Part shown: positions 973 through 18,826 of the stretch, piece by piece
Layout: each line of letters starts with the position of its first letter
Numbering within the stretch: position 1 is the first letter of the stretch
Source: an uncultured Ruminococcus sp.
GTDB lineage: Bacteria; Bacillota; Clostridia; Oscillospirales; Ruminococcaceae
Direction of reading: 5' to 3'
DNA: 64,000 bases
Assembly: GCA_900543145.1 (NCBI GenBank)
Contig: UQPZ01000002.1
Location: forward strand, 111,497-175,496
Translations under genes and position numbers: made by a program
Notes under the pieces: model-generated
What the model saw: the letters and a program-made list of their open reading frames with translations, nothing else
What the model was told of the DNA's origin: nothing
Databases searched by the model: none

Positions 973-1398
973 AATTAAAGCTCCTTTTTATCAGTGTTTT
1001 TACAATTTAATTATGATACTATTCAAGGCTTATGTCAATATAATTTTTTTGTATTATTATAAATATCTGAAACCTGTTCAGGAATATATTTACCTAAGAT
1101 ATTAAAATAAAATTTGAATATTTATAAGAATATTATATTTACAGTATAACCGCTCCAATATAACGGCTATTAATAAAATATTTTGATTTTATCGGAAAAA
1201 CAGCGTGTTTACGTTAACGAAAACCTTTGAGATGCCTTAGTAAAACAAATATCTGTAGATAAGCGATCTTTCAGCGGCTATAAAAATATGAATATAAAGA
1301 TATGAAACAGGTAACAGTTTGCCATGCGTCGTCTGCCGAAAGTAAGGCAAAAAAACTTTTACCTTTTAAACAAATTCCGCACGGCTAATTTGTGTATT

Positions 1399-2256
1399 TT
1401 ATCCTAATTTCTTATTTTCAGCTTCTTCGGGAACTCTTATCGTATACTCTATAAACCCGTCTTTTTTTGATTTTTTTACCTTTGCGTCTACTCCTGCAAG
1501 CTTTATTACCTGAACTGCTCTGTCTACAGTGTTGAAAAAAAGCCGCAGATCTCCCAGTACAGCAGATCTTTTTCGATAGCTCTGCCTTATCCGTTCGCTT
1601 TTTTCAAGCGTTTTTATGTATTTTTCAGCAGCGTCAACAGTAAGTCCGTCCTTAATGATTTTAAGCAGTACGTCCTCCCTTATGCTTTCGTCCGCTTTAA
1701 GCAATGCTCTTGCGTGACGCTCGGACAGTCCGTTTGAAATGATGATCTTCCGAAGGGATGGTGAAAGCTTTAATATCCTCAGCTTGTTTGCAATAGTCGA
1801 CTGCGCTGTTCCAAGCCGTATAGCCGCTTCTTCCTGGGTCATTCCGTGCTTATTTATAAGAGCCGCAATAGCCTCCGCTTCCTCAAAAAAATTCAGGTCT
1901 GCTCTCTGTATGTTCTCGATCAAAGCAATGACTGCAGATCTGGTGTCAGAAATGTCAACAAGTACGCAGGGAACGCTTTTAAAGCCGGCCATCTTTGCCG
2001 CCCTGAGCCGTCTTTCGCCTGAAATAAGCTCAAAGCCTCCCTCTCTCTTCCGTATAGTAAGAGGCTGAATTATCCCGTCCTGAGAAATGCTCTTTGCAAG
2101 CTTTGTAAGCTCCTCGGTGCTGAAATATTTTCTTGGCTGGTCGGGATTGGGAACGATCGAGCCTATAGGAACTTCAATTACCTTTCCAAGCTCCTTTGCG
2201 GCAGGAGCGGCAGTCTTTTCACGGGTTCTTGTCATAATGCTCATAATTTCGCTCAT
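1399..2256 (-). CDS. ParB/Noc-family DNA-binding protein; paralog of the parB at 7978, oriented divergently from parA
   Basis: 285 aa with a ParB N-terminal box GERRLRAAKMAG and an HTH region TQEEAAIRLGTAQSTIANKLRIL. The Lys-rich C-terminus resembles Noc. Confidence 0.8.
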   Translation of the reverse strand: MSEIMSIMTRTREKTAAPAAKELGKVIEVPIGSIVPNPDQPRKYFSTEELTKLAKSISQDGIIQPLTIRKREGGFELISGERRLRAAKMAGFKSVPCVLVDISDTRSAVIALIENIQRADLNFFEEAEAIAALINKHGMTQEEAAIRLGTAQSTIANKLRILKLSPSLRKIIISNGLSERHARALLKADESIREDVLLKIIKDGLTVDAAEKYIKTLEKSERIRQSYRKRSAVLGDLRLFFNTVDRAVQVIKLAGVDAKVKKSKKDGFIEYTIRVPEEAENKKLG

Positions 2257-2692
2257 GCGGATAAAGTTCCGTATGAACTTCCTCCTTTTTAATAAAAGTT
2301 ATCGGTATAAGCAGATTATAGCACTTTCAAAGACAGGATTCTATAAAATATTCAAAGAAAAATACCAAAAATTACGCTTAAAAATCACTTTTTTCCGTAG
2401 AATTTTCCCTTAACCGCTGTATTTCGCTCCGTCTTTTGTCGAATAAGGAAAAGCCCCGCCGCATTAAGAATTTCATATAAAAAACCGTTTCCTCCGCTCT
2501 CTGTATATAAATCGCATAAAAATGAGAAAGATCTGACGCTTTTATGTTTTTTAAGAGTCAGCTTAAATTATAGGTGTCAATAATTAATTTGTCAATGCAT
2601 TTTTAAACAATAAGAAATAATTCGCCGCTCTTGATTTATCCATAAGCTGACTTCATTAATTCAATAATTTAATTATTCACAAATTATTTATA

Positions 2693-2708
2693 TGTTCCAC
2701 GTGGAACA
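2693..2708. promoter_or_regulatory. parS: parS site 1: perfect 16-bp palindrome TGTTCCACGTGGAACA
   Basis: Exact palindrome one base off the B. subtilis parS consensus TGTTCCACGTGAAACA. It sits in the 560-bp AT-rich spacer upstream of the ParB-like gene. Confidence 0.8.
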
Positions 2709-2818
2709 TTTTTTTAAAACGCTGAGAATAAAAACAGACGCCGCCGCTCCTGCAATACCAGCATAATGCCGTTGTATTTGCAGCAGCTCAGCAGCGTCCG
2801 TATTTTAGATTCTTCCAT

Positions 2819-4081
2819 TCAGCTTATTTCGGAAAACTCAAGCTCGTAATTTTTAAAATAATAAAGCCTGTGATCAGTTTCCTCGCCGCTTTTGGTATAT
2901 TCGTTAGCCAGATCCGCAAGCACATCTCCCGTTGAATTGCACATTGCATATGTAAAGCCGTACCTTTTATCGTCAGTACATAAGCTTGCTTTTTTTATAC
3001 TTCCGTCTGCTTCAATTGAGTAAATAATATTTTCGCTTTCCTTTTTGGCTTTGTCCCTATTTACGTCGGAGATAAAATTAAACCTTCCTTCGGAGCAATT
3101 GGTTATCCATTTAAAACGTGGAGATTTAAGAAGAGAAATATATTCCCCGTCCTTGAGCTTCTGTAAGCATTGAAGCATTCCCCTGTTTTCGTAATAGGCG
3201 TAGCCGCCGATAATTCTGAAGTAGTAAACAACAGCGAAACGCTCCTGCATAAGGAGGTTAAAATCCTGCGGCAGCTCAAATTCGTAGCCGAGATCAGGGA
3301 AAAATTCTTTTGAACCGATAAAATTAAAGGTCTTATCATAAGTATCAATGTAAATATCGACCGTCATGTCTGACGCACGTTTGACCCGCAAAAGATAAAT
3401 ATTTTCCCCGTCAGAGGTAATATACCTTATTGTTTCGCCTGTTTTTAAGTTCGGATCATATTTAAAAGACGGCGGTAGGATCTGCTGTTCCTTGGTTTTT
3501 AAATCAAAAGCTTCTATAACCGAGGTACCTATATCGTCGCATACTCCTATATAGGCTTTTCCTCCGCTGACCGTCATAATATTGTAAATAGAAGAATTTG
3601 AAACCGAGTAGATCTTTTCTATAGACTTTCCGTTTATATCAATATCGAAAATACTCTGTTCGCTTTTATCTTCAGAAAGGTATTCGCCCGTTGTAGCAAG
3701 AATATATAAATGACCGTCCGTATACTCGGAATTGTTTGTGTTTAAAAATGACCAGTTTTCGATAGTTCCAAGCTTTTCAGATTCTCCGCTTTCTATATTA
3801 TATGAATAAATATCAATGTTTTTACGGTCTTTTACTCTTACTGTTTTATAGTAAATAATATTGCTGTCTATAAGATAAAGCAGTGATGAATATTCTATCT
3901 CCCCTATCTTCTCATTATCAGCATTGTATATAGGGTCAACGGTGTATATCGGATCCGGTTCTGTTACTTTTAAGCCGCTATCACCAATGTAACCAGGGTC
4001 GCCCGGCTTTGCATTTCCAAAAGAGCAGCCCGAAAGCGCTAATGCGGCTAAAGCAAATAGAGCCATAATTCGGTTCTTCAT
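2819..4081 (-). CDS. Hypothetical lipoprotein (about 420 aa), likely a beta-rich or propeller-like extracytoplasmic domain
   Basis: Start chosen at MKNRIMALFALAALALSGCS (lipobox) with RBS GGGTGAG. Stop is 18 bp after the upstream gene, which indicates an operon. No catalytic motif recognised. Confidence 0.5.
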   Translation of the reverse strand: MKNRIMALFALAALALSGCSFGNAKPGDPGYIGDSGLKVTEPDPIYTVDPIYNADNEKIGEIEYSSLLYLIDSNIIYYKTVRVKDRKNIDIYSYNIESGESEKLGTIENWSFLNTNNSEYTDGHLYILATTGEYLSEDKSEQSIFDIDINGKSIEKIYSVSNSSIYNIMTVSGGKAYIGVCDDIGTSVIEAFDLKTKEQQILPPSFKYDPNLKTGETIRYITSDGENIYLLRVKRASDMTVDIYIDTYDKTFNFIGSKEFFPDLGYEFELPQDFNLLMQERFAVVYYFRIIGGYAYYENRGMLQCLQKLKDGEYISLLKSPRFKWITNCSEGRFNFISDVNRDKAKKESENIIYSIEADGSIKKASLCTDDKRYGFTYAMCNSTGDVLADLANEYTKSGEETDHRLYYFKNYELEFSEIS

Positions 4082-4098
4082 ATTGCTCACCCCTGTTC

Positions 4099-4821
4099 TT
4101 AATAAACTATACTTCTGCAAACTCTGTCAACAACCGATGAAGCGATTGTATAAAAGCAGTCCACATTTGCATCTTTTCCGCCCCAAGGGTCCGCAATTTC
4201 TATATAACTGCCTGCATTTGATGTAATTACGCCTTTTGCCAGAATACAATGCCCCGGGGTTGCATATTTCCAGTTACTTTCATTTGATACGATTCTTAAA
4301 AACGCAGGAACAGAATCATTGACTACGTCCATTTTTATGCAGTTGACCAGATCAGTTTCAGTAGGCGAGCTTTTATAAATATAAAGACATCGATTCTGCT
4401 TTCCGTTCATATAATTGGGTACCTTTGTAAAATCCTGATGTATACTGAGGTTAATTACAGTCTGAGAGGGAGAAGAACCGTTTATATACATAAGGGCGCT
4501 TTTAACACAAGCAGGACCGCAGTATGTATCCGTTTCCTGCTGATACATAGTAAAAGAACCGGGAAGAGAGTACCCGATGAGTTCTCTGGTTTTAGGATTT
4601 TCTTCAGTCATGTGGGAAAGAAGATATTCCTTTTCTTCTGCAATTTTTTTCTGTTCATCGCTTAAACTGCTGTAGTACTCATAGTATTCTGCTTCGTTGA
4701 CCTGAGCATTATCTCCGGGTATTACCGAAGGCTCACCTACCGCATATACCTGTGTGCAGACAGTCATAAAAGCAGCCGCAGCAGCCGTAAATAAAACCAT
4801 AACTCTTACTATTTTCCTCAT
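4099..4821 (-). CDS. Secreted papain-fold (peptidase C39-like) cysteine peptidase domain protein
   Basis: Signal peptide MRKIVRVMVLFTAAAAAFMTVCTQVYA. A Cys motif DTYCGPACVKSALMY is followed by GHCILAKGV (His) and IADPWGG (Asp), which fits a Cys-His-Asp papain-like triad. Start chosen at the internal MRK with RBS AAAGGA. Confidence 0.4.
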   Translation of the reverse strand: MRKIVRVMVLFTAAAAAFMTVCTQVYAVGEPSVIPGDNAQVNEAEYYEYYSSLSDEQKKIAEEKEYLLSHMTEENPKTRELIGYSLPGSFTMYQQETDTYCGPACVKSALMYINGSSPSQTVINLSIHQDFTKVPNYMNGKQNRCLYIYKSSPTETDLVNCIKMDVVNDSVPAFLRIVSNESNWKYATPGHCILAKGVITSNAGSYIEIADPWGGKDANVDCFYTIASSVVDRVCRSIVY

Positions 4822-5008
4822 ATAGATCAGTCCTTTCATTTTGTTTAATTTAACCAATATCCTCCTTTTAAAATATACCATAATTATACTTGTTTGTCAA
4901 TACATATTTTAATAAAATATAAATTGTTTATTGTTTTCAAATCATAATGCATAGTGGTTGTGTCAATTATAATGGTTCAATAATTTAATTATTCATAAAT
5001 TATCTATA

Positions 5009-5204: not shown

Positions 5205-5969
5205 ATGGGAAAAATAATAGCCGTATCGAATCAGAAAGGCGGAGTAGGAAAATCAACTACGGTAGTAAATCTGGCCGCAGTTTTCGGAAATAGAGGAAAA
5301 AAGGTGCTTATAGTTGATTTCGATCCTCAGGGCAATACTACTACCAGCTACGGAATAAAAAAGAAAAGTATACGGAATACCGTATATGAAGTGCTAATGG
5401 ACGATTGCTCGGTTTTTGAAGCGGCAGTAGCCACCGAATTTCGAGGGGTCTCCGTTGTCCCCACGACTCAGAAGCTTTCCGGAGCTTCCGTAGAGCTGGT
5501 TTCTGTAAAGGACAGGGCAAGACGTTTGCGCTCAAAGCTGCTTGAAGCAAAGGATTTCTATGATTTTATACTTATAGACTGCCCTCCTACACTGGATATG
5601 CTGACCATAAATGCACTTGTGGCGGCGGATACAGTGCTTATTCCGCTCCAGTGTGAATTTCTTTCACTTGAGGGATTAGTTGAGCTTAACCAGACTATAG
5701 AACGTGTTAAGAAAACCTGGAATCCCGATTTAAAAATAGAGGGGATACTATTTACAATGTTCGTTGAGCGTTACAAGGTAACAGGACAGATTGTTGCGGA
5801 GGTTAAAAAATATTTTTCAAACCACGTTTTCAAAACGGTTATCCCACGGAATATAGCGCTTTCGGAAGCTCCAAGCTTCGGACAGCCTGCACTTTATTAC
5901 GACAAAAAGTCCAAAGGCTCAAAGGCGTATGAGTCGCTTGCAAAAGAAATAATAAAAAATAATATTTAG
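5205..5969 (+). CDS. parA: Chromosome partitioning ATPase ParA/Soj
   Basis: Deviant Walker A KGGVGKST, a MinD/ParA-type fold, RBS AAGGAGA. The -10-like element TATAAT lies upstream. Confidence 0.9.
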   Translation: MGKIIAVSNQKGGVGKSTTVVNLAAVFGNRGKKVLIVDFDPQGNTTTSYGIKKKSIRNTVYEVLMDDCSVFEAAVATEFRGVSVVPTTQKLSGASVELVSVKDRARRLRSKLLEAKDFYDFILIDCPPTLDMLTINALVAADTVLIPLQCEFLSLEGLVELNQTIERVKKTWNPDLKIEGILFTMFVERYKVTGQIVAEVKKYFSNHVFKTVIPRNIALSEAPSFGQPALYYDKKSKGSKAYESLAKEIIKNNI

Positions 5970-6009: not shown

Positions 6010-6098
6010 TTTTAATAAGGACAGTGTTTCGTCTTAGCAAACAACTGAAAAAAGCAAGAGAAAATGCCGGATAAGGCATGGAAAAGGAGAAATACATA

Positions 6099-6584
6099 AT
6101 GAACATTTCAATATGCGGCTTAGACTGCGGAAATTGTGAACTGAAGGATTCCTGCAAAGGCTGTTCTGAAACGAACGGAAGGCCGTTCGGCGGCAAGTGT
6201 ATTATTGCCCAATGCTGTAAAAACGGAGAAAGTGAGCATTGCCGCGGAAAATGCTTTGCCGGTAAATGCAGGCTTAAAAAGCAGCTGATCGAGGAATTTA
6301 ACTCGCTTGGGATAGAGGATATGGAAGAGGTTACAGATCTTAATGCGCTGAAAGGCTCATATATAAATCTTGAATACACGCTTCTAGGAGGACAGGCAGT
6401 CAAATTATGGGACGACAGCAGAGTTTATTTAGGTAATCAGATCTGCAAGAAAAACAGCAGCAGGTGCTACGGACTGACCGCAGACGAAAGCTATCTTTTG
6501 GTATGCGAATACGGCGACGGCGGCTGTGACGCGGAAATTATAGTATATAAAAAGCGTAAAAATAACGGCTCGGAAAGACAATAG
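6099..6584 (+). CDS. DUF3795-family cysteine-rich (putative metal-binding) protein
   Basis: N-terminus MNISICGLDCGNCELKDSCKGC matches the CGLxCxxC signature of DUF3795. 14 Cys in total. RBS AAAGGAGA 8 nt upstream of the chosen ATG. Confidence 0.55.
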   Translation: MNISICGLDCGNCELKDSCKGCSETNGRPFGGKCIIAQCCKNGESEHCRGKCFAGKCRLKKQLIEEFNSLGIEDMEEVTDLNALKGSYINLEYTLLGGQAVKLWDDSRVYLGNQICKKNSSRCYGLTADESYLLVCEYGDGGCDAEIIVYKKRKNNGSERQ

Positions 6585-6650
6585 TTACACAAAAGAGTTA
6601 GTATTGCAGAAAATACGCTTATCTGCATGGAAATCAAGCATGAATTAAAA

Positions 6651-6666
6651 TGTTCCACGTGGAACA
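6651..6666. promoter_or_regulatory. parS: parS site 4: TGTTCCACGTGGAACA (22-bp extended palindrome)
   Basis: Perfect palindrome immediately upstream of the RBS of the methyltransferase gene. Confidence 0.8.
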
Positions 6667-6689
6667 TTTCAGAAAAAGGGGAAATGAAA

Positions 6690-7256
6690 ATGGCAAGCAC
6701 ATTCGGAGCGGTTCAGCTTGCTCACGAATTTTTAGCAGCACAGGTCAAACCCGGAGATATTTGTATAGACTGCACAGCGGGGAGGGGAAACGACACGGCA
6801 TTTCTCTGCTCGCTTGTAGGAGAAAGCGGGAAGGTTTACAGCTTTGATATTCAGCAGGAAGCTGTTGAAAGCACAAGAATGCTTCTTGAAGAAAGGGGAT
6901 TCACGGACATTGCCTGTGTAATTCACGGCAGTCATGAATTTGCAGACCGATATATAGGCGAGGGAGAAGCAGCTGCTGCGGTATTTAATCTCGGCTGGCT
7001 TCCCGGCGGAGATCACTCAGTTCACACTCAGACGGCTTCGACGATAACGGCAATAGAAAAATGCCTGAAGCTTCTGAAATCGGGAGGGGTTATTAGCCTT
7101 TCAATATATTACGGCAGGGACACAGGCTTTGAAGAAAAGGACGCAGTGCTCAACTATATTTCAAAGCTTCCTGTAGGAGAATTTACGGTAATAGTCAGTG
7201 AGTTTACAAACCGCCCCAACTGCCCTCCAATAAGCGTAAGGATATACAAGTCCTAG
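6690..7256 (+). CDS. Class I SAM-dependent methyltransferase, putative rRNA methylase family (YtqB-like)
   Basis: DCTAGRGNDTAFL is SAM-binding motif I, and the overall length and architecture fit the rRNA_methylase family. Start set at MASTFG, 8 nt after AAAAAGGGG. The last codons and the stop (AAG TCC TAG) are contributed by the downstream repeat element. Confidence 0.6.
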   Translation: MASTFGAVQLAHEFLAAQVKPGDICIDCTAGRGNDTAFLCSLVGESGKVYSFDIQQEAVESTRMLLEERGFTDIACVIHGSHEFADRYIGEGEAAAAVFNLGWLPGGDHSVHTQTASTITAIEKCLKLLKSGGVISLSIYYGRDTGFEEKDAVLNYISKLPVGEFTVIVSEFTNRPNCPPISVRIYKS

Positions 7257-7790
7257 CGCAGACGGCGGTCCTAGCGCGGACGGCGCAAGCCGCGTGATCG
7301 CTCCTGGTGTCGCTCGTTTGTGTGGAGGAAAATTTTGTGCCGCGGCAATGGTTTGTAAAAAATTAAAAATAAAAAGTCCTAGGTCTTAGCGCGGACGGGG
7401 CAAGTTGCGTGATCGCTCCTGGCGTCGCTCGTTTCTGCGGGCGGGAAATTTTGTACCGCGGCTATGGCAAGTCAAAGATACTTTCTAAGAATGTTCTGGT
7501 GCAGACGGGGCAAGTCGCGTGATCGCTCCCGGGGTCGCTCGTTTGTGTGGAGGGAAATTTTGTGCCGCGGCAATGGCAAGTCAAAGATACTTTCTAAAAA
7601 TGTTCTGGCGCGGACGGGGCAAGTTGCGTGATCGCTCCTGGTGTCGTTCTTTTCTGCGGGCGGGAAATTTTGTACCGCGGCAATGGTTTGTAAAAAATTA
7701 AAAATAAAAAGTCCTAGGTCTTAGCGCAGACGGGGCAAGTCGTGTGATTGCTATTGGCGTCGCTCGAAGGTGAGGAAGGTCGATTTTATG
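7251..7790. repeat. Tandem array of a novel intergenic repeat of about 112 bp: about 4 full units plus a partial first unit and a distinct terminal unit
   Basis: Units start at about 7272, 7387, 7499, 7609 and 7722, a period of 110-115 bp. The core is TAGCGCRGACGGGGCAAGTYGCGTGATCGCTCCTGGYGTCGCTCGTTTSTGYGG...AAATTTTGTRCCGCGGCAATGG. There are two tail types, one A-rich ending GTCCTAGGTCTTAGCGC and one CAAGTCAAAGATACTTTCTAARAATGTTCTGG. The last unit diverges to CGCTCGAAGGTGAGG. ORF 7519..7701 inside it is spurious. Confidence 0.85.
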
Positions 7791-7977
7791 GCGCAGAGGC
7801 GGGAAGATATAAATAATGGGGTAAAGAATGTTAGACGGGTTTATTCAGGGATGTCGAATGAGCGCAGTTCGTCCTTGTGATTATATGTGCAAAGTTCGGT
7901 TTTTTCCTAAGCGGCGCAGTAAACATTAATTAATGTAAAAAATTAGCATACATGAAAGAATACGGAGGTTAATAAAA

Positions 7978-8910
7978 ATGGCAAAAAAGGAAAGGTTGAA
8001 AAACGGCTTGGATTCGTTATTTGAGGACAATTTCAGCGAAAGCGGAGAAGCTTCCGAGGAAGGAAAAAATTCCGACGTAAGGGAAATACGAATTTCGCTT
8101 ATAGAGCCTGACAGGAATCAGCCGAGATCGGATTTTGACGAGGAGAGGCTTAACGAGCTGGCGGAAAATATCAGACAGCACGGAGTTTTACAGCCGATAC
8201 TGGTGCGTCCTTTTGGCGAGGACAGGTACATGATAGTTGCCGGAGAACGGCGTTGGAGGGCGGCTAGAATAGCCGGACTGAGCGAGATACCCGCGCTTAT
8301 AAGGGAGCTTACGGAGCTGGAGGCGGCTCAGATAGCTTTGATCGAGAATATTCAGAGGGAGGATCTGAATCCTATTGAGGAGGCCAAGGCTTACAGGCGG
8401 CTTTCTGATGAATTCGGAATGAAGCAGGAGGATATTGCCCGTATAGTGGGGAAATCGAGGGCGGCGGTTTCTAACTCAATGAGGCTTCTTAATCTTATTC
8501 CTGAGGTTCAGGAGGCGGTTTCAAGCAAGCAGATCTCCGCAGGTCACGCAAAGGTTCTGTGCGGAGTTGAGAATCCTGAGCAGCAGAGGATATTAATGCT
8601 TCAGGCGCAGAACGACAATATGTCAGTAAGGGATTTTACGCAGCACGTTGAAAAGGTACTGGGCGGCGGCTACAAGCGTGAGGCTGAGGAAAGAAATTCA
8701 CGCAAGGCTTCAGGCGGCAGGATAAAGAAGGTAGTATTCGGCGACCCTGACGAAAAAATGCTTTTAGAGGCAAGGACGGCAATTTACAGCGAATACGGTA
8801 TAGCTCCCGATTTCAAGCGAACAAAGACGGGAGTAATTATAATGGATATGGAATTCGGCAGCGACGAAATGTTTGCAGACTTTTTAAAAAGAATATCTCA
8901 CAAGTCCTAG
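7978..8910 (+). CDS. parB: Chromosome partitioning protein ParB/Spo0J
   Basis: N-terminal GLDSLF, ParB box GERRWRAARIAG, HTH QEDIARIVGKSRAAVSNSMRLL. RBS GGAGG. The final codons and stop (AAG TCC TAG) lie within the first repeat unit. Confidence 0.9.
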   Translation: MAKKERLKNGLDSLFEDNFSESGEASEEGKNSDVREIRISLIEPDRNQPRSDFDEERLNELAENIRQHGVLQPILVRPFGEDRYMIVAGERRWRAARIAGLSEIPALIRELTELEAAQIALIENIQREDLNPIEEAKAYRRLSDEFGMKQEDIARIVGKSRAAVSNSMRLLNLIPEVQEAVSSKQISAGHAKVLCGVENPEQQRILMLQAQNDNMSVRDFTQHVEKVLGGGYKREAEERNSRKASGGRIKKVVFGDPDEKMLLEARTAIYSEYGIAPDFKRTKTGVIIMDMEFGSDEMFADFLKRISHKS

Positions 8911-9110
8911 GTCTTAGCGCATTCGGCGCAATTCGCATAATCGCTCCTGACGTCGCTCGTTTGTGCTGGTGGGTACTTATATGCTGCGGCAATAGATTGC
9001 AAAAAACTAAGCATAAAAAGGTCTTGGCGCAGACAGTGCAATTCGCGTGATCGCTCTTGGGGTCGCTCCAAGGTGCGGGATGTCGATTTACTGCCGCGGT
9101 AAAAGAGAGT
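8901..9110. repeat. Second array of the same repeat family: 2 units, the second being the terminal variant
   Basis: CAAGTCCTAGGTCTTAGCGCATTCGGCGCAATTCGCATAATCGCTCCTGACGTCGCTCGTTTGTGCTGG ..., then GGTCTTGGCGCAGACAGTGCAATTCGCGTGATCGCTCTTGGGGTCGCTCCAAGGTGCGGG. Same polarity and same terminal-unit signature as the array at 7251. Confidence 0.8.
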
Positions 9111-10066: not shown

Positions 10067-10121
10067 ATAAACCAAGTTATTTTATAAATCTAAATGATAT
10101 AATATATTAGATGGAGGTTCT

Positions 10122-10256
10122 ATGAAAAGACAACTTGTATTATTTATGGCGGCTGCCTTTTTGGCTTCTAATTTAACAGCCTGCAAAAATTCTGAAAACA
10201 CACTATCGTCCGATAATGATAAAAGCCGAAGCACACAAAGCCGTATTTCCGATTAG
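10122..10256 (+). pseudogene. Truncated duplicate of the 5' end of the lipoprotein gene at 9227 (signal peptide plus linker, then a stop)
   Basis: About 90% nucleotide identity to 9227-9360, including ATGAAAAGAMAACTTGTATTATTTATGGCGGCTGCCTTTTTGG and the RBS. The reading frame ends at TAG after 44 codons. Confidence 0.6.
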
Positions 10257-10337
10257 GTTTAGGAAAGTATGGAAAGCGGCAAGGATAATTAGGTAGTTAA
10301 AGGCAGAACATAGTAAAATAACATAAACAAAAAACCG

Positions 10338-10374
10338 CCAGTTCAATTCTGTATTGAACTGGCAGTTTTTTGTG
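10338..10374. terminator. Bidirectional Rho-independent terminator
   Basis: CCAGTTCAA-ttctgta-TTGAACTGG is a perfect 9-bp stem. It is flanked by AAAAAA upstream and TTTTTTGTG downstream, between convergent genes. Confidence 0.7.
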
Positions 10375-10443
10375 TTTACTACTATTGACTACTTCGACCT
10401 AAATCGATCCGCCCTTGTTTTTTATATTCGGTTAAGTTTAAAT

Positions 10444-12264
10444 TTATGCCTTTCTTTTCAGTACAGCCGCTACTGCGCCGACAAGGAGAACAGCCGCCGC
10501 TCCTGCCGCAGCCGCTCCTGTGGAGGGGTTACTGTCGGAAGAGTCAGCCTTTGATAAATCCTTTGCTTCGGTATTGCTGTCCGATACTGAGGAAACGCTG
10601 TCTTCATCGGACAGGCTGGTATCGGAATTGCTGTTCTGATCTGCTTCAGAGCTTTCGTAAGATGATAGGTCTGAGGTCGTATCAGAACTTTCGTCTGACG
10701 ATATGTCAGAACTTTCATTTGATGATATGTCTGAGCTTTCATCGGAGCTTTCGTCAGGAATCTCAGTATAAATCGCTTTTACTGTACAGCTTCCGGAAAC
10801 AGCGCTGAGATCGGTGTCCCATTCTCCTGTAAAGCCTTCCTTTTCGGGAATTTCAGGAGCGGCTTCCGAGTTGAAGCTGTCACCTTTGGCTACATAAACT
10901 ACGCCGAGAACATTGTCATTTTCATCAACAAAGGTTACGGCATAAGAAGCGAAGGACAGGCTTCCGTCTGATTTTATCGCCCATTTGGAAAGCTCAGCTT
11001 CATTTATTTCATATTTATAGCTGTTAAGAGTATCCAAAATAGATCTAAGCTTTTCGTAATCGGTAAAATCAGATATACAGTCAATCTCTGTTCCGGTTAC
11101 CGCAGTCAGGGCTTCATTGTTTACGGTTTTGAATGATGAATTGCTGTCGCAGAAAGCGTTTTCGATCAGATAAGTACCGATGTCGGTGTTTATCGTTCCC
11201 GCAAGCAGGCCTGAGCAGCTTGAACCGCCGCTGTTTTCAGCTGATTCTATAGCCGCCGTAGAAATACAGTTTGAAATTCTGAACACATTGGAGCCGTTTG
11301 CAAAGCCGCTGCCTTCGCCTTCCTTGCCGGACATACTTCCGACGATACCGCCCAGATTAAAGGTTCCATTGACAGTAGCACCAGAATAACAGTTTATTAT
11401 TTCGCTTACCAAAGCGCCTCCCGCTATTCCTCCGCTGTGGTGAGTAGACGTGATATTTGCTTCGGAGCCGCAGTTTATAAGCCGGCAGGCTCTGAGGTAG
11501 CCTGTTAAGCCTCCGACCGCACAGCTGCCCTGAACGTCGGCATTGCTGTAGCAGTCAATAAACTCGGTGGAATACGCTCCGCCGACAAGACCGCCGATTT
11601 GTCCGACATAATCGTTTGTGTCAATGCTGCCTTTTACTGTCGTATCCGTTACAGAGCAGTTTTTGATAGTATGTGTGGGAGTAGCAGAACCGGCATACGG
11701 AATATCTCCGATCTCACCGATCAGGCCGCCTACAAACCAAGAGTTTACTGAAACCTCGCAGTTGGTGACATGACAGTTTTCAAGGGTAACGCTTTCGGTT
11801 TCGTCCCGTCCGGCGATAATTCCGACAAAGCCGTTGCTGGTGTTTTCAGATTCAATTACGGTGCAGTGGTCAAAGGTAATGTTTCTGACTGTTCCGCCGG
11901 CTATGGTATTGAAAAATCCCAGGTTTGCGGTTTTACTGTAGTCCGGATCTTGAATGTCGGAGCTTGTGATGGACATATTTGAGATAGTATAGCCATTGCC
12001 GTCAAAGATGCCTTTGAATTTGTACATGCCTGTCCATTCAATGCCGGTCATATCAATATTGTCGGTCAGCTCTACCGTCAGGCTGTCGGCAGCGTAATCG
12101 CCGTTATCCCAAGCGGTTTTAAATTGCACGAGGTCTTCTGCCGATCCCAGCTTAACGGTAACGTCCGAACCCTCAGCGGCGGAAGCGTTCAGCAGGCAAG
12201 CCGGAGTTACAGCCAGAGCCGCAGCTGAAAGAACAGAAAGCAAGCGTTTTTTGATATTTAACAT
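10444..12264 (-). CDS. Cell-wall-anchored surface protein with GLUG-motif repeats and a Ser/Asp-rich stalk
   Basis: Signal peptide MLNIKKRLLSVLSAAALAVTPACLLNASA. Repeated GGLxG / GGIAG / GGIVG (GLUG-like) beta-helical repeats. SDESSDISSNESSDISSDESSD stalk. C-terminal NPSTG, then a hydrophobic stretch and KRKA, which is a sortase-type sorting signal. Confidence 0.6.
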   Translation of the reverse strand: MLNIKKRLLSVLSAAALAVTPACLLNASAAEGSDVTVKLGSAEDLVQFKTAWDNGDYAADSLTVELTDNIDMTGIEWTGMYKFKGIFDGNGYTISNMSITSSDIQDPDYSKTANLGFFNTIAGGTVRNITFDHCTVIESENTSNGFVGIIAGRDETESVTLENCHVTNCEVSVNSWFVGGLIGEIGDIPYAGSATPTHTIKNCSVTDTTVKGSIDTNDYVGQIGGLVGGAYSTEFIDCYSNADVQGSCAVGGLTGYLRACRLINCGSEANITSTHHSGGIAGGALVSEIINCYSGATVNGTFNLGGIVGSMSGKEGEGSGFANGSNVFRISNCISTAAIESAENSGGSSCSGLLAGTINTDIGTYLIENAFCDSNSSFKTVNNEALTAVTGTEIDCISDFTDYEKLRSILDTLNSYKYEINEAELSKWAIKSDGSLSFASYAVTFVDENDNVLGVVYVAKGDSFNSEAAPEIPEKEGFTGEWDTDLSAVSGSCTVKAIYTEIPDESSDESSDISSNESSDISSDESSDTTSDLSSYESSEADQNSNSDTSLSDEDSVSSVSDSNTEAKDLSKADSSDSNPSTGAAAAGAAAVLLVGAVAAVLKRKA

Positions 12265-12381
12265 ATTAATTCTCCTTTAACTAAGTTTTATCTAAGTTTA
12301 TCATAAAGTTGTCTTGTTGTCAACAAATTATTTATATAAAATTCAAATTTCAATCGTCAGGCTTCACATAGTCGGCAATAC

Positions 12382-12410
12382 TTGACTATTGCAGGGAAAT
12401 GTAATATAAT
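12382..12410 (+). promoter_or_regulatory. Sigma-A-type promoter for serS: TTGACT-17 nt-TATAAT
   Basis: TTGACT at 12382-12387 and TATAAT at 12405-12410, 37 bp upstream of serS. No T-box leader is present. Confidence 0.55.
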
Positions 12411-12446
12411 TAAAAAGATATTTAAATATTTAAGGAGTAGATCAAA

Positions 12447-13733
12447 ATGCTGGATATGAAACTTTTAAGAACCGATCCCGAATTGGTTAAGGAGAATATC
12501 AAGAAGAAATTTCAGGACGATAAGCTTGTGCTGGTTGACGAGGTTGTTGAAATGGATAAGGAATATCGTTCAACAAAGACCCGCTGTGATGAATTGAGAT
12601 CAAAAAGAAATACCATGAGCAAGCAGATCGGAGGTCTGATGGCTAAGGGTCAGAGGGACGAGGCTGAAAAGGTCAAGGCTGAGGTAAAGGCTATCGGCGA
12701 CGAGCTTGCGGCGCTTGAGGTAAAGGAAGCTGAGCTTGAGGGCGAAATCAGAAAGAGAATGCTGGTCATTCCGAATATTATAGACCCGTCTGTTCCTATC
12801 GGAAAGGACGACAGCGAAAACGTTGAGCTGGAAAGATTCGGAGAGCCGTTTGTTCCGGACTTTGAGGTGCCGTATCATGTAGACATTATGGAGAGGCTCA
12901 GCGGAATTGATCTTGATTCCGCAAGAAAGACCAGCGGAAACGGCTTTTATTATCTCTGCGGCGATATTGCAAGACTTCACTCTGCAATTCTGTCCTACGC
13001 CAGAGATTTCATGATCGACAGGGGATTTACCTATTACATTCCTCCGTTTATGATCCGCTCCGACGTTGTTACGGGCGTAATGAGCTTTGCGGAGATGGAA
13101 AATATGATGTACAAGATAGAGGGGGAGGACCTTTATCTTATCGGTACTTCCGAGCATTCAATGATAGGCAAGTTCATTGACACTATTACACCTGAAAGCG
13201 AGCTGCCCAAAACGCTTACAAGCTACAGCCCCTGCTTCAGAAAAGAAGTAGGCGCTCACGGTATTGAGGAGAGAGGCGTTTACAGGATACATCAGTTTGA
13301 AAAGCAGGAAATGATAGTAGTATGCAAGCCGGAGGAAAGCAAGGAATGGTACGACAGGCTTTGGAAAAACAGTGTTGATTTCTTCCGTTCGCTGGATATT
13401 CCAGTAAGGACGCTGGAATGCTGTTCGGGGGATCTTGCGGATCTGAAGGTAAAGAGCTGCGACGTTGAAGCATGGAGTCCTCGTCAGAAGAAGTATTTTG
13501 AGGTCGGCTCATGCTCCAATCTGGGCGACGCTCAGGCAAGACGGCTCGGCATAAGGATAAAGGCAGAGGACGGTTCAAAGTATTTTGCTCACACGCTTAA
13601 CAATACAGTTGTTGCGCCGCCGAGAATGCTTATCGCATTTCTTGAGAACAATCTCAATGAGGACGGCTCGGTAAGGATACCGGAAGCTCTCAGAATGTAC
13701 ATGGGCGGAAAAGACCTGATAGCTGTCGATTAA
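12447..13733 (+). CDS. serS: Seryl-tRNA synthetase
   Basis: 428 aa with an N-terminal coiled-coil arm and class II aaRS motifs such as FRKEVGAHGIEERGVYRIHQFEKQE. RBS AAGGAG. Confidence 0.9.
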   Translation: MLDMKLLRTDPELVKENIKKKFQDDKLVLVDEVVEMDKEYRSTKTRCDELRSKRNTMSKQIGGLMAKGQRDEAEKVKAEVKAIGDELAALEVKEAELEGEIRKRMLVIPNIIDPSVPIGKDDSENVELERFGEPFVPDFEVPYHVDIMERLSGIDLDSARKTSGNGFYYLCGDIARLHSAILSYARDFMIDRGFTYYIPPFMIRSDVVTGVMSFAEMENMMYKIEGEDLYLIGTSEHSMIGKFIDTITPESELPKTLTSYSPCFRKEVGAHGIEERGVYRIHQFEKQEMIVVCKPEESKEWYDRLWKNSVDFFRSLDIPVRTLECCSGDLADLKVKSCDVEAWSPRQKKYFEVGSCSNLGDAQARRLGIRIKAEDGSKYFAHTLNNTVVAPPRMLIAFLENNLNEDGSVRIPEALRMYMGGKDLIAVD

Positions 13734-13835
13734 GACGGGTTTAGATCCGGGGCGGCGGAAAGTACGGCGGCAAAAGCTGACGGCGGTAACTATACGCTTT
13801 GTTCGTAAATATAAATGTAAAGATAAGGAGCTTTT

Positions 13836-14900
13836 ATGGGCAGAAGTGAAAGAAAGAGAAGCATTAAGAAAACGGTTATTATTTCGGCTGCGGCAGGTTT
13901 GCTTGTCCTGTGCCTTGCGGTAATGATAACGGTTCACGTTCTGCTTAAACAGAATTTTTCCAGAGGCGAATATTCGGAATATTCAGTTTCCTACCGTTAC
14001 AGTCATTATGAGGACGGATATCCGAGAACTCCGGTAAGCTTCAGGTCGGGGAAAAACACTCTCAGAGGCTATATATACGGAGGGGACAACGACAAGGGAC
14101 TTATTGTTGTTTCTCACGGTATTGGCGGAGGTCACGAGGGGTATATAAACGAAATAGTCTGGTTTACAGAGCATGGCTGGAGGGTATTTGCTTACGACTG
14201 CACCGGAAGCTGTGAGAGCGAGGGAGAGGGAACTAAGGGACTGCCGCAGTCGGCGCTTGATCTTGACGCTGCGCTGACGTATATTGAGCAGGATAATAGC
14301 CTTTCGGGTATGAAAAAATATCTTTACGGTCACAGCTGGGGAGGATATGCGGTTACGGCAGGTCTTAATTTTGACCACGACGTCACAGCTTCAGCAAGTA
14401 TAGCGGGATATGCCTATCCGATGGAGATGATAATGGAGTTTACAGACGGTATGATAGGAGGAGCTTCAAAGCTTTTGTATCCGTTTATCTGGCTTGACTG
14501 CAAGGCGGCGTTCGGAGAATACTCGAATCTTTCGGCAATTGACGGAATAAACAAAAGCGGGATACCTGTACTTATCGTTCACGGAGAGGACGATGAGCTC
14601 ATAGGCTACGGCAGGTCGTCGATCATTTCCAAGAAGGCGGAGATAACCAATCCCAACGTTGAATATTACACGGTAAGCGGAGCAAACGACGGACACAATT
14701 CAATTTTCCAGTCACCTGAGGCCGCGGAATACAAGAATGAGCTTGAAAAGGACTATGAGAAGCTGAAGGAAAGGTACGGAAAAAAGATCCCCGGTGAGGT
14801 TCAGCAGGAGTTTTATGACGGTGCAGACAAGGAAAAAGCCAACGAATGCAACACTGAGCTGCTTGAGAAGATAAACACTTTCTTTGAAAAGGCGTCTTAG
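13836..14900 (+). CDS. Alpha/beta-hydrolase fold serine hydrolase, membrane-anchored
   Basis: N-terminal TM helix, a GHSWGG nucleophile elbow (GxSxG), and downstream Asp/His candidates. The last codon and stop (TCT TAG) are part of a repeat unit. Confidence 0.6.
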   Translation: MGRSERKRSIKKTVIISAAAGLLVLCLAVMITVHVLLKQNFSRGEYSEYSVSYRYSHYEDGYPRTPVSFRSGKNTLRGYIYGGDNDKGLIVVSHGIGGGHEGYINEIVWFTEHGWRVFAYDCTGSCESEGEGTKGLPQSALDLDAALTYIEQDNSLSGMKKYLYGHSWGGYAVTAGLNFDHDVTASASIAGYAYPMEMIMEFTDGMIGGASKLLYPFIWLDCKAAFGEYSNLSAIDGINKSGIPVLIVHGEDDELIGYGRSSIISKKAEITNPNVEYYTVSGANDGHNSIFQSPEAAEYKNELEKDYEKLKERYGKKIPGEVQQEFYDGADKEKANECNTELLEKINTFFEKAS

Positions 14901-15095
14901 CGCAGACGGCGCAATTCGCGCAGTCGCTCCTAACGTCGCTCGTTTCTGCGGGCGGACACTAATAAGCCGCAGCTAAGTTTTGAAAAAGCTTAAACTTTCC
15001 CTTCTTGGAGGGCGGTCTTAGCGCAGACGGCGCAATTCGCGCAGTCGCTCCTGACGTCGCTCGAATAGGGGGAGATTATGCCGCGGCGGCTTTTT
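14891..15095. repeat. Third array of the same repeat family: 2 units, the second being the terminal variant
   Basis: GTCTTAGCGCAGACGGCGCAATTCGCGCAGTCGCTCCTAACGTCGCTCGTTTCTGCGGGCGG ..., then GGTCTTAGCGCAGACGGCGCAATTCGCGCAGTCGCTCCTGACGTCGCTCGAATAGGGGGAG ... CCGCGG. Confidence 0.8.
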
Positions 15096-15186
15096 GGGTG
15101 ATCTATTCTGATACGGTTATAATGGGTAAGCTAATAAAGCTTGTCCTGTGATATTAAAAATGAATGTAAAATTATAAGGTGGTTTT

Positions 15187-16563: not shown

Positions 16564-16831
16564 TCCTGACGCCGAACGGACGGATATCCCTTCCCGCTGT
16601 GCTTTGCGGGTCAAGAAGGTTCGTGTTTCTCCCCGTGAGGGGAGGTTTATTATAATTATATAGTTAGTAAGTGTTACGATATTGCACTGAAAGTCCTTTC
16701 TAATAGGGAAAGATAAGACCGCAGGAAATCATATTGATTCTGCACGTAAGGGTGTATGATCGGGTGAACGAAGATCATCAAAAACTCTTGTCCTAAGGTA
16801 ATTGCGCATATATGAAAAGAGGTTTCTGAAT

Positions 16832-18700: not shown

Positions 18701-18826
18701 TCAATATTTAAGCCGCCCGAGTTTTATGCGGCTATATTTGCGGAATATTATAGGACGTCTTGAAAAAAGCAGGATTATTCTGTAATGAGCGATTTTCTGC
18801 AATGAACTTAAAGAGGAGAAACTTAA

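What the first reader, a model, noticed from the sequence alone, without database searches (positions are those of the whole stretch)
7251..7790. Previously undescribed tandem repeat family of about 112 bp: main array between parA and parB
Four to five head-to-tail units with a period of 110-115 bp share a GC-rich core: TAGCGCRGACGGGGCAAGTYGCGTGATCGCTCCTGGYGTCGCTCGTTTSTGYGG ... TTTTGTRCCGCGGCAATGG. The core contains an internal direct sub-repeat, TCGCTC ... TCGCTC spaced about one helical turn apart, and a conserved CCGCGG. Units carry one of two alternative tails, and the array ends with a recognisably different terminal unit (CGCTCGAAGGTGAGG...GTCGATTTTATGGCGCAGAGG). The array therefore has polarity, as a leader-less CRISPR-like or iteron-like structure would. 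It is not a CRISPR array: there are no unique spacers and the units are 110 bp. It matches no element family I recognise (REP, BOX, RUP, Correia). Lying between parA and parB, next to four parS sites, it could be a protein-binding iteron or centromere-like array, a structured small-RNA array, or a MITE/REPIN-like selfish element.
Basis: seen in the sequence. Interest (0 to 1): 0.8.

Follow-up and report, generated by a model that had tools for sequence, protein, structure and literature searches.

The report
Gene-end repeat element, tandemly amplified
The 110-bp tandem array upstream of parB is real, but it is one site of a small dispersed repeat family that sits at the ends of unrelated genes in a few gut Ruminococcus species and one phage; it is most likely a selfish, locally amplified element and not a chromosome-partition or small-RNA device.

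Summary
Positions 7250-7800 carry a partial 18-nt motif and five head-to-tail units of 109-116 bp. Cores are of two types, tails of two types, and the last unit is a distinct subtype.

The array is not specific to the par locus. Two-unit arrays follow parB (8904-9108) and a hydrolase gene (14894-15096), and a truncated copy follows a cellulase gene just left of the window. Related units follow a histidine kinase, an ABC transporter and a GH5 gene in other gut metagenome contigs. The 21-nt 5' motif recurs at least 8 times in one phage contig.

Every gene-adjacent array starts inside the upstream gene's last codons and supplies its stop codon: 7 of 8 use Ser-TAG.

Relatives with 65-78% ParB identity have no units at the same sites. 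A sister lineage (94% nucleotide identity) has 1 or 2 units instead of 5. Units diverge faster than the flanking genes.

No Rfam match, no stable fold, no covariation beyond a 4-bp hairpin, no coding signal, no terminal inverted repeats.

Best reading: a new family of interspersed intergenic repeats, closest to MIRU, REP or BOX elements, amplified locally into a variable-number array. Its mobilising enzyme and any function are unknown.

The parts
6627..7256 (+). Upstream gene, rRNA-methylase-like (PF06962). Its last codons, AAG TCC TAG (7248-7256), run into the first repeat motif. It is 5 aa shorter than the homologue in relative L036 (...RIYKSEDGKL*).
7250..7267 (+). Partial 5' motif GTCCTAGCGCAGACGGCG (the 18-nt 'stutter'). 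It contains the methylase stop codon TAG at 7254-7256.
7268..7382 (+). Unit U1: 5' motif, core type 1, A-rich tail A ending in the 7-mer GTCCTAG (7376-7382).
7383..7492 (+). Unit U2: core type 2 plus tail B. Tail B is also found in locus L006 of another species.
7493..7601 (+). Unit U3: core type 1 plus tail B. The TAG of the motif is mutated to TGG.
7602..7717 (+). Unit U4: core type 2 plus tail A with the 7-mer at 7711-7717. TAG is mutated to TGG.
7718..7800 (+). Unit U5, the terminal 'T-type' unit. Its 3' half (CGAAGGTG..GTCGATTTTATGGCGC) resembles V2 and the L005 units and differs from U1-U4. The single unit kept in sister lineage L028 occupies this position.
7978..8910 (+). parB. It ends ...KRISHK-S*. 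Relatives end ...KRIS[GSE]K*, so the final Ser-TAG comes from the repeat.
8904..9108 (+). Second array: 7-mer GTCCTAG (8904-8910, containing the parB stop), internal-type unit V1 (8911-9020) and terminal-type unit V2 (9021-about 9108).
13836..14900 (+). Alpha/beta-hydrolase gene whose stop codon (14898-14900) lies inside the motif GTCTTAG at 14894-14900.
14894..15096 (+). Third array: W1 (14894-15014) and W2 (15015-about 15096), upstream of mnmE (15187-16563). The 5' halves are 92-94% identical to units in other species (L5a, L6a).

Best explanation
The array is a locally amplified copy of a small, non-coding, non-autonomous interspersed repeat element found in a few human-gut Ruminococcus lineages and at least one of their phages.

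Anatomy. A full unit is about 110 nt. It begins with one to three copies of an 18-nt motif, GTCYTRGCGCRGACGGCG, which contains a 4-bp hairpin or inverted repeat (GTCY/RGAC). A strongly conserved core follows, with two TCGCTC boxes 12 nt apart. Then comes a variable stretch, a TTTTRTGCCGCGGCAA box, and an A-rich tail of type A or B.

Shown. The element lands at or within a few codons of the 3' end of a gene, in the gene's orientation. Its 5' end carries stop codons in two reading frames: TAG at nt 5-7 and usually TGA/TAA/TAG at nt 28-30. The interrupted gene therefore ends with at most a few changed residues, and the insertion is tolerated. Unit number differs between lineages (1, 2 or 5 between the methylase gene and parB). 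Units are mosaics of each other.

Inferred. Arrays grow and shrink by unequal recombination or slippage. Units exchange segments by gene conversion. The invariant 5' motif is the recognition site of a trans-acting mobilising protein that has not been identified. Phages help carry the element between hosts.

The position next to parB and the parS sites is incidental. The only effect I can infer is a longer spacer between the methylase gene and parB.
For: Dispersal.
- The window holds 9 units at 3 loci, and a fourth locus lies about 200 nt left of the window. All abut different genes.
- Related units follow a histidine kinase, an ABC transporter and a GH5 gene in other gut metagenome contigs. 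Between these contigs, only the repeats are alignable at DNA level.
- 5' halves are up to 94% identical across species, which is more than between loci of the same genome.

Patchiness.
- There are no units within 10 kb of parB in Ruminococcus relatives.
- Compact 'empty' sites exist in L036 (intergenic regions of 45 and 24 nt), and L033 has none.

Variable number.
- L028 has 1 unit, L029 and L030 have 2, and the window, L009 and L010 have 5. The number of 18-mer copies also varies.

Fast, mosaic evolution.
- Units are 81-91% identical between lineages whose coding sequences are 94% identical and whose adjacent intergenic region is 98% identical.
- 3' halves pair as U1=U3 and U2=U4 (97%), while tails pair as U1=U4 and U2=U3.

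Gene-end rule.
- All 8 gene-adjacent arrays supply the stop codon. The 7 Ser-TAG cases are the methylase gene, parB, the hydrolase gene, the cellulase gene, L006, L007 and phage TerL. The one TGA case is the L005 kinase.
- Homologues show ParB at +1 aa, the methylase at -5 aa, and TerL aligned to within 0-1 residues of its end.

Phage link.
- The 21-nt motif occurs at least 8 times, in both orientations, in phage contig L041. There, inverted doublets fold into a 431-nt hairpin with z = -12.
- One L005 unit lies beside a prophage small-terminase gene.

Not RNA, not coding.
Against: - No transposase, recombinase or RAYT-like partner was found, and the genomes could not be searched as wholes.
- Window units lack terminal inverted repeats. 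I saw no target-site duplications, though this was judged only by eye at the junctions.
- No locus was seen in both filled and empty state within one species. Mobility is therefore inferred from distribution, not observed.
- All chromosomal copies are co-oriented with the upstream gene and abut its stop codon. This could instead reflect a function in the mRNA.
- The 50-nt 5' core is highly conserved across hosts of 40-53% GC, which could reflect a host or phage function instead of a mobility signal.
- The 1- and 2-unit alleles come from short-read Logan assemblies, which can collapse repeats.
- A strict pattern scan of 185,579 species-representative genomes found nothing. Genome-wide copy number is therefore unknown.
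Confidence: 0.55

Rival explanations
1. The units are a cis-acting mRNA element in the 3' untranslated or intercistronic region. They are transcribed with the upstream gene. The short hairpin that holds the UAG in its loop, together with the conserved single-stranded core, would bind a protein or RNase. This would set mRNA processing or stability, or modulate termination and re-initiation of translation between cistrons. Known analogies are REP stabilisers, T7 RNase III sites and the small ORFs proposed to act in translational coupling in MIRUs.
For: - All 7 chromosomal arrays are co-oriented with the abutting upstream gene and overlap its stop codon. This includes the minus-strand cellulase locus and two convergent loci.
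- In L007 and the cellulase locus the unit lies between the stop codon and an intrinsic terminator.
- The hairpin is 96% paired with one covarying pair: UA 13, CG 6, UG 1.
- The G-U combinations are compatible only with the sense strand.
- RTGA stop/start overlaps occur at nt 27-30 in 14 of 21 units.
- In phage L041 the motifs sit at the start of the late region and directly after the TerL stop codon.
Against: - There is no stable or conserved structure beyond 4 bp.
- Units diverge faster than neighbouring coding and regulatory DNA.
- Relatives do without them at the same operon junctions.
- Most L041 copies are antisense to the phage genes.
- Start codons in the 3' box are present in only about half of the units, and no frame shows coding constraint.
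- The arrays end 95-180 nt before the next start codon, so there is no stop-start coupling with the downstream gene.
Confidence: 0.2
2. The units form a DNA protein-binding array: an iteron or centromere-like element, or an accessory site for a ParB/Noc-family or other DNA-binding protein. Binding would be through the tandem 18-mers, the two TCGCTC boxes one helical turn apart, or the palindromic TGCCGCGGCA box.
For: - The array lies between four identical parS sites and parB, about 1.3 kb downstream of parA. A second ParB-like gene lies at 1399-2256.
- The 18-nt direct repeats are iteron-sized.
- The strongest conservation is primary sequence, not structure.
Against: - The same units follow cellulase, hydrolase, kinase, transporter and phage terminase genes.
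- They are absent from the par loci of all relatives examined.
- Copy number varies from 1 to 5 in near-identical par loci.
- Units evolve fast.
- The 18-nt spacing is not in helical phase.
Confidence: 0.07
3. The units are translated mini-ORFs in the strict MIRU sense. A relay of small overlapping ORFs would carry ribosomes from the upstream gene across the array to the downstream gene.
For: - Frame 3 is open through most units. GTGA or ATGA stop/start overlaps exist, and ORFs of 55 and 60 aa span units (7464-7631 and 7519-7701).
- MIRUs are described as inserting so that an internal ORF is coupled to the neighbouring gene (PMC12548453, citing Supply et al. 1997).
Against: - No frame shows an excess of synonymous changes: 0.33 observed against 0.27 under the null in the best frame.
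- The chain of ORFs is broken in several units.
- Nothing overlaps the downstream start codons.
- A protein search with the unit-encoded peptides found one spurious ORF among 5.8 billion proteins.
Confidence: 0.05

Closest known systems
MIRUs (mycobacterial interspersed repetitive units; Supply et al. 1997, as summarised in PMC12548453; further details are from my own knowledge)
   Same: Both are direct head-to-tail repeats of about 50-110 bp, in intergenic regions between co-directional genes, oriented like those genes. Both are dispersed at many loci. Copy number varies between strains. The ends overlap the terminal codons of flanking genes, so insertion does little harm. No transposase is known for either.
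   Different: - There is no sequence relationship, and the host phylum differs (Firmicutes, not Actinobacteria).
- These units overlap only the upstream stop codon, not the downstream start codon.
- There is no consistent internal ORF.
- These units have an 18-nt 5' stutter, two alternative tails and a distinct terminal unit.
- The 5' motif is shared with a phage.
REP / BIME / REPIN elements of proteobacteria
   Same: Both are short GC-rich extragenic repeats in 3' untranslated and intercistronic regions. Both form mosaic clusters built from a few core and linker types. In phage L041 the related elements occur as inverted doublets that fold into long hairpins, like REPINs. REPs close to stop codons are known to affect the upstream gene (from my own knowledge).
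   Different: - REPs are 20-40-nt palindromes in alternating orientation, mobilised by RAYT transposases.
- The window units are about 110 nt, all direct, essentially unstructured (z about 0), and no RAYT was seen.
BOX elements of Streptococcus pneumoniae
   Same: Both have a modular build in which a middle module is repeated a variable number of times. Both are intergenic and have no known mobility gene.
   Different: BOX elements fold stably and have defined A, B and C modules. There is no sequence similarity, no stable fold here, and BOX elements show no stop-codon overlap rule.
MITEs
   Same: Both are small, non-coding, multi-copy and patchily distributed between close relatives. Both are also found in phage DNA.
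   Different: Terminal inverted repeats were tested and not found in the window units. I saw no target-site duplications (by eye only). Tandem direct arrays are not typical of MITEs.
Integron attC sites
   Same: Both sit directly after a gene, often containing its stop codon, and both are about 60-140 bp.
   Different: There is no imperfect-palindrome fold on either strand. There is no R' core GTTRRRY. No gene cassettes lie between units, and no intI was found. Integrons are not known in Firmicutes (from my own knowledge).

Membership tests
CRISPR array | Short (about 23-55 nt) identical repeats separated by unique spacers of similar length | tested here: not met
   Units of 109-116 nt abut directly. 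Tails are of two recurring types, not unique spacers.
Structured non-coding RNA (any Rfam family) | Match to a covariance model, or a conserved secondary structure with covariation | tested here: not met
   No Rfam match at gathering score. The only match at E<=10 is a chance miRNA match at 19 bits. Folding z-scores run from -1.2 to +1.0. RNAalifold gives -5.7 kcal/mol with only a 4-bp hairpin.
Iteron / centromere-like par site | Repeats specific to, and conserved with, a replication or partition locus | tested here: not met
   The same units occur at unrelated genes and the 5' motif occurs in a phage. They are absent from the par loci of relatives.
Iteron / centromere-like par site | Specific binding by a Rep or ParB-type protein | not testable with these tools
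   This needs ChIP-seq or EMSA.
MITE | Terminal inverted repeats | tested here: not met
   The 5' 30 nt were aligned against the reverse complement of the 3' part in 19 units; mean z = 0.5 against shuffles. Related phage elements do form inverted doublets.
MITE | Target-site duplication flanking each copy | tested here: inconclusive
   No consistent flanking direct repeat is visible at 8 junctions. The variable 6-18-nt 5' stutter obscures the boundary, and no within-species empty site was available. This was judged by eye only.
REP / REPIN | 20-40-nt imperfect palindrome, usually as inverted doublets | tested here: not met
   The only structure is a 4-bp inverted repeat (GTCY N6 RGAC). All window copies are direct.
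REP / REPIN | Associated RAYT (Y1 transposase) gene in the genome | not testable with these tools
None was seen among the roughly 20 proteins scanned with Pfam near the units in the window, L037 and L041. The other flanking ORFs were only compared with each other.
MIRU-like minisatellite | Direct tandem repeats of about 50-100 bp in intergenic regions, co-oriented with the flanking genes, at several loci | tested here: met
MIRU-like minisatellite | Copy-number polymorphism between strains | tested here: met
   1, 2 and 5 units between the methylase gene and parB; 1 against at least 2 units in L007 and L001. Caveat: these are short-read assemblies.
MIRU-like minisatellite | Unit ends overlap the stop codon of the upstream gene AND the start codon of the downstream gene, through an internal ORF | tested here: not met
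   The upstream stop codon is overlapped in 8 of 8 cases. The downstream start codon lies 95-180 nt beyond the array. There is no conserved ORF and no coding signal.
MIRU-like minisatellite | Sequence homology to mycobacterial MIRUs | not tested
   No MIRU sequences were compared. The claim is analogy only.
Integron attC | R''-L''...L'-R' imperfect palindrome folding as single-stranded DNA, with R' = GTTRRRY | tested here: not met
   There is no significant fold on either strand. No GTTRRRY lies at unit ends.
Protein-coding repeat | Open frame with an excess of synonymous substitutions | tested here: not met
   Across the six frames the synonymous fraction is 0.21-0.35, against a null of 0.20-0.32.

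The most novel reading that the evidence does not exclude
The element may represent a new kind of target choice for a bacterial mobile element. It would home to the extreme 3' end of genes and install its own stop codon. It would be driven by an unidentified enzyme, possibly phage-borne, that recognises the 18-nt hairpin motif. The variable 5' stutter (6, 7, 12 or 18 nt, then a restart at nt 1) would be the scar of that mechanism, for example re-initiated copying from a defined start.

A related version: the motif is a cis-signal of the late operon of Ruminococcaceae phages, for processing or antitermination, and the host copies tie host gene ends to phage regulators.
Probability: 0.15. Interest if true: 0.7.

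Novelty: new member of a known kind. Interest (0 to 1): 0.38.

Why it matters
The result removes a tempting but unsupported link between this array and chromosome partition.

It adds a Firmicute counterpart to the mycobacterial MIRU type of element. The family is small, appears undescribed, is shared between gut Ruminococcus chromosomes and a phage, and donates stop codons to the genes it abuts.

Practical consequences:
- The arrays are variable-number loci that could serve for strain typing of a common gut species.
- They probably explain why metagenome assemblies break on both sides of parB: 91 of 219 collection blocks have only contigs under 2 kb that carry this ParB.

If the gene-end association turns out to be mechanistic and not the result of selection, it would point to an unknown insertion mechanism.

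Tried and rejected
- **Known RNA family.** Rfam at gathering score on the whole window, at E<=10 on 7100-8000, and on phage L041 gave nothing relevant.
- **Structured RNA.** Per-unit and whole-array folds on both strands, RNAalifold, and my own scan of all column pairs for compatible helices found only a 4-bp hairpin.
- **Coding repeat.** Third-position-like variation seen by eye did not survive a six-frame synonymous/non-synonymous count.
- **Terminal inverted repeats in the units.** The apparent similarity of the 3' box to the reverse complement of the 5' motif was not significant.
- **Decayed relic units downstream of the terminal units.** Nothing was found with nhmmer --max at E<=1000.
- **Harvesting more copies through spurious ORFs.** One hit only, and it is the already known L005 locus. 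A second attempt with the frame-1 tag failed because max_evalue is capped at 10.
- **Plasmid and phage BLAST, and literature search by sequence strings.** No match.
- **A conserved partner gene next to units in different species.** None. Only a distant GH5 pair at 33-37% aa identity precedes units in two species.
- **Origin from tRNA.** There are no tRNAs in the window, and the tRNA-Ser genes of L041 show no meaningful similarity.
- **Looser core pattern in viral contigs.** Only chance hits.
- **L002, L004 and L008 from the first pattern scans.** These are chance matches; nhmmer does not support them.
- **Intrinsic terminators.** A stem plus T-run appears only in U2 and U4 and is not conserved.
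- **ECF-type promoter reading of the core (GCAAT-18-CGTC).** Considered, but the invariant AAC of the -35 element is missing. Not pursued.
Full report
**1.

Tandem Repeats Finder reports an array at 7274-7686 (period 109, 3.7 copies, score 506). It also reports a 225-nt super-period over 7271-7766 and an 18-nt duplication at 7250-7285. The two conserved boxes each occur four times in the window against about zero expected.

The sequence resolves into these parts:
- a partial 18-mer, GTCCTAGCGCAGACGGCG (7250-7267)
- U1 (7268-7382, tail A)
- U2 (7383-7492, tail B)
- U3 (7493-7601, tail B)
- U4 (7602-7717, tail A)
- U5 (7718-about 7800), whose 3' half is different

The array is 52% G+C in a 45% window.

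The flanking genes need one correction. parA is at 5205-5969, followed by an unknown ORF (6078-6584) and an rRNA-methylase-like gene (6627-7256, PF06962). The array comes next, then parB (7978-8910). The four parS sites are real.

**2. The array is one member of a dispersed family.**

BLASTN and an nhmmer profile of the units find exactly nine units in the window, all on the + strand. Five are in the main array, two directly follow parB (8911-9108), and two follow a hydrolase gene (14894-15096, upstream of mnmE). Contigs of the same species (L009, L010) show a fourth, truncated copy about 200 nt left of the window. It lies on the minus strand, directly after a minus-strand cellulase gene.

A pattern scan of metagenome contigs found related units in human-gut contigs from two other organisms. 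These follow a histidine kinase (L005/L031), an ABC transporter (L006) and a GH5 glycosidase (L001/L003/L007). Between these organisms only the repeats are alignable at DNA level. The 5' halves of units are up to 94% identical across species. That is more than between loci within the window genome.

**3. Anatomy.**

An alignment of 21 non-redundant units shows an almost invariant 5' half: GTCYTRGCGCRGACGGCGCAAKTCGCGYRRTCGCTCCTGRNGTCGCTCG. Its most conserved blocks are the two TCGCTC boxes, 12 nt apart. A variable stretch of about 20 nt follows, then a TTTTRTGCCGCGGCAA box and an A-rich tail.

Both tail types recur at other loci. Tail B occurs in L006, and an A-like tail occurs after V1 and in L029.

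The first 18 nt are themselves reiterated. Zero to two extra copies, or truncated copies of 6, 7 or 12 nt, precede the full unit. Their number differs between strains.

Every array in the window ends in a 'T-type' unit (U5, V2, W2; similar to the L005 units). The preceding units are 'I-type'.

Within the main array the units are mosaics. The 3' halves pair as U1=U3 and U2=U4 (97%), while the tails pair as U1=U4 and U2=U3.

**4. The gene-end rule.**

In all seven chromosomal loci where an array follows a gene, it has the gene's orientation and starts inside its last codons.
- Six genes end in G-TCY-TAG (Ser-stop) provided by the motif.
- The L005 kinase reads into the unit in another frame and stops at the TGA at nt 28-30.
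- The same holds for the large terminase of a phage (see section 7).

Homologues show how close the junction is to the native end. ParB relatives end ...KRIS[GSE]K*, so the window ParB (...KRISHKS*) has gained one residue. The methylase of relative L036 ends ...RIYKSEDGKL*, so the window protein (...RIYKS*) has lost five residues.

The unit carries stop codons in two of three frames. TAG at nt 5-7 is kept whenever it is in use and is often TGG elsewhere. A stop codon is present at nt 28-30 in 16 of 21 units.

**5. Distribution in relatives and between strains.**

The organism is a Ruminococcus. Its ParB is 76-78% identical to that of Ruminococcus sp. Marseille-P6503 and related MAGs. None of the relatives at 51-78% ParB identity has a unit within 10 kb of parB. 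L036 (65%) has compact 'empty' junctions, 45 nt between the methylase gene and parB and 24 nt after parB. L033 (74%) has a parS site but no units.

A sister lineage (coding sequences 94% identical) has all the loci occupied, but with one unit (L028) or two units (L029, L030) between the methylase gene and parB instead of five. It also has a different number of 18-mers after parB.

Between the two lineages, units are 81-91% identical. Coding sequences are 94% identical, and the intergenic region just after V2 is 98% identical. The units therefore evolve faster than their surroundings, which argues against tight constraint on each unit.

Caveat: the short alleles come from short-read Logan assemblies.

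**6. What it is not.**

- *Known RNA family.* There is no Rfam match.
- *Structured RNA.* Single units fold no better than shuffles on either strand (z from -1.2 to +1.0). The whole array has z = +0.56. The RNAalifold consensus is -5.7 kcal/mol and consists of one 4-bp hairpin, GUCY-N6-RGAC. This hairpin is 96% paired with one covarying pair (UA 13, CG 6, UG 1, CA 1). An exhaustive scan for compatible helices found nothing longer than 5 bp.
- *Coding.* No reading frame shows coding constraint.
- *MITE.* The window units have no significant terminal inverted repeats.
- *Other databases.* There is no match in PLSDB plasmids or INPHARED phages, and none in the literature by sequence string.
- *Weak promoter and terminator signals.* A minus-strand promoter-like site recurs once per unit, and two units have a terminator-like stem. 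Neither is conserved.

**7. The phage connection.**

A scan of viral contigs with the 21-nt 5' motif found five related phage contigs with a single solo motif. It also found one 12.3-kb phage contig, L041 (53% G+C), which encodes an integrase, a sigma factor, a large terminase and a capsid protein. L041 carries at least eight motifs in both orientations in its unusually long intergenic regions.

In L041 the terminase gene ends AGG TCC TAG inside a + oriented motif, followed by the 18-mer stutter. Homologous terminases align to residue 457-458 of its 458 residues. One L041 copy is a diverged window-type unit. The others share the motif but continue differently. These form inverted doublets that fold into a 431-nt hairpin (-226 kcal/mol, z = -12), which is REPIN- or MITE-like.

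One L005 unit lies next to a prophage small-terminase gene, and it shares upstream sequence with L041.

The motif is therefore a conserved end module of a wider family that also lives in phages. This offers a route for spread between hosts.

**8. Interpretation.**

The evidence best fits a non-autonomous, selfish or near-neutral interspersed element. Five properties point that way:
- dispersal to unrelated gene ends
- a patchy distribution with cross-species similarity
- presence in a phage
- rapid, mosaic evolution
- copy-number variation

Such an element is tolerated at gene ends because it brings its own stop codons. It is amplified in place by unequal recombination or slippage.

What mobilises it is unknown. 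I saw neither a transposase nor filled and empty sites within one species, so mobility is inferred.

The strict co-orientation and the stop-codon overlap keep alive a rival reading in which the unit acts in the mRNA, in processing, stability, or termination and re-initiation of translation. Part of the gene-end rule may also be selection alone. In tight operons, with native spacers of 24-45 nt, the only harmless insertion point lies just after the stop codon. This does not explain the two loci with free space before a terminator.

A partition or iteron role is unlikely, for the reasons given in sections 2 and 5.

**9. Comparison and novelty.**

The closest known analogue is the mycobacterial MIRU. 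MIRUs are direct tandem intergenic repeats, co-oriented with operon genes, overlapping terminal codons, and variable in number (PMC12548453, citing Supply et al. 1997). The present units do not reach the downstream start codon and have no conserved internal ORF, so this is an analogy and not membership. REP/BIME/REPIN, BOX, MITE and attC were each tested on their defining features and are not met by the window units.

I rate the finding as a new, apparently undescribed member of the known kind 'small interspersed intergenic repeats'. It has some unusual traits: stop-codon donation, the 18-nt stutter, and a motif shared between phage and host. These are worth a follow-up but do not amount to a new type of system.

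Noticed in passing
window 1399-2256 (-), with parS sites at 2693, 5009, 5994 and 6651: A second ParB-family gene (285 aa, ParB_N + HTH_ParB, possibly Noc-like) lies divergently upstream of parA. All four parS sites are the identical palindrome TGTTCCACGTGGAACA, and one of them lies inside the methylase gene (6651).
   Followed up: partly
L041 4280-5370, 7141-8156, 9286-9838 and 10847-11355: The phage contig has intergenic regions of 0.5-1.1 kb before four consecutive late genes. Each is built from the same repeated blocks (265-, 145- and 157-nt families, 3-5 copies each). Each ends in the same 29-nt stretch, CGTCTCGGAGATAAAAAAGGAG..., just before the start codon. There is no Rfam match. This may be a repeated leader, promoter or processing cassette, or nested mobile elements.
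   Followed up: partly
L010 12100-20933, against L009 and window about 10100-18900: One strain of the same species carries a prophage-like segment where the window has the 606-aa GLUG-motif protein, serS and the hydrolase locus. The segment encodes an HTH regulator, a D12 methyltransferase, a GH25 lysin and a pectate-lyase-like tail protein.
   Followed up: no
collection statistics for the ParB of window 7978-8910: In 91 of the 219 collection blocks, the longest contig carrying this exact ParB is shorter than 2 kb. This is consistent with assemblies breaking in the repeat arrays on both sides of parB.
   Followed up: no
window 7332-7359, 7448-7475, 7557-7584 and 7667-7694 (-): There is one sigma-70-like site per unit on the minus strand (TTGACT or TTTACA, 16 nt, CAAAAT; 9 of 12 matches). 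If active, each unit would drive antisense transcription towards the methylase gene.
   Followed up: no
window 1-5000: GC skew is negative in the first 4 kb and positive from 4 kb to the end. Several one-mismatch DnaA-box-like sites cluster at 2256-2681, in the 560-nt AT-rich spacer that also holds a parS site and a small tandem repeat (2652-2679). DnaA boxes are not enriched in the window as a whole.
   Followed up: partly
window 10669-10743 and 28112-28180: Short in-gene tandem repeats with a 24-nt period lie inside the 606-aa GLUG-motif ORF and the 842-aa ORF. They are probably repeated peptide motifs.
   Followed up: no
L009 1820-3010 (-) and L007 7223-8422 (-): In two different species a GH5 cellulase (only 33-37% identical in protein) is followed by the same unit subtype, GTCCTGGCGCGGACGGCGCAATTCGCGT... 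The units are 88% identical. This may be coincidence or co-transfer of the unit.
   Followed up: partly
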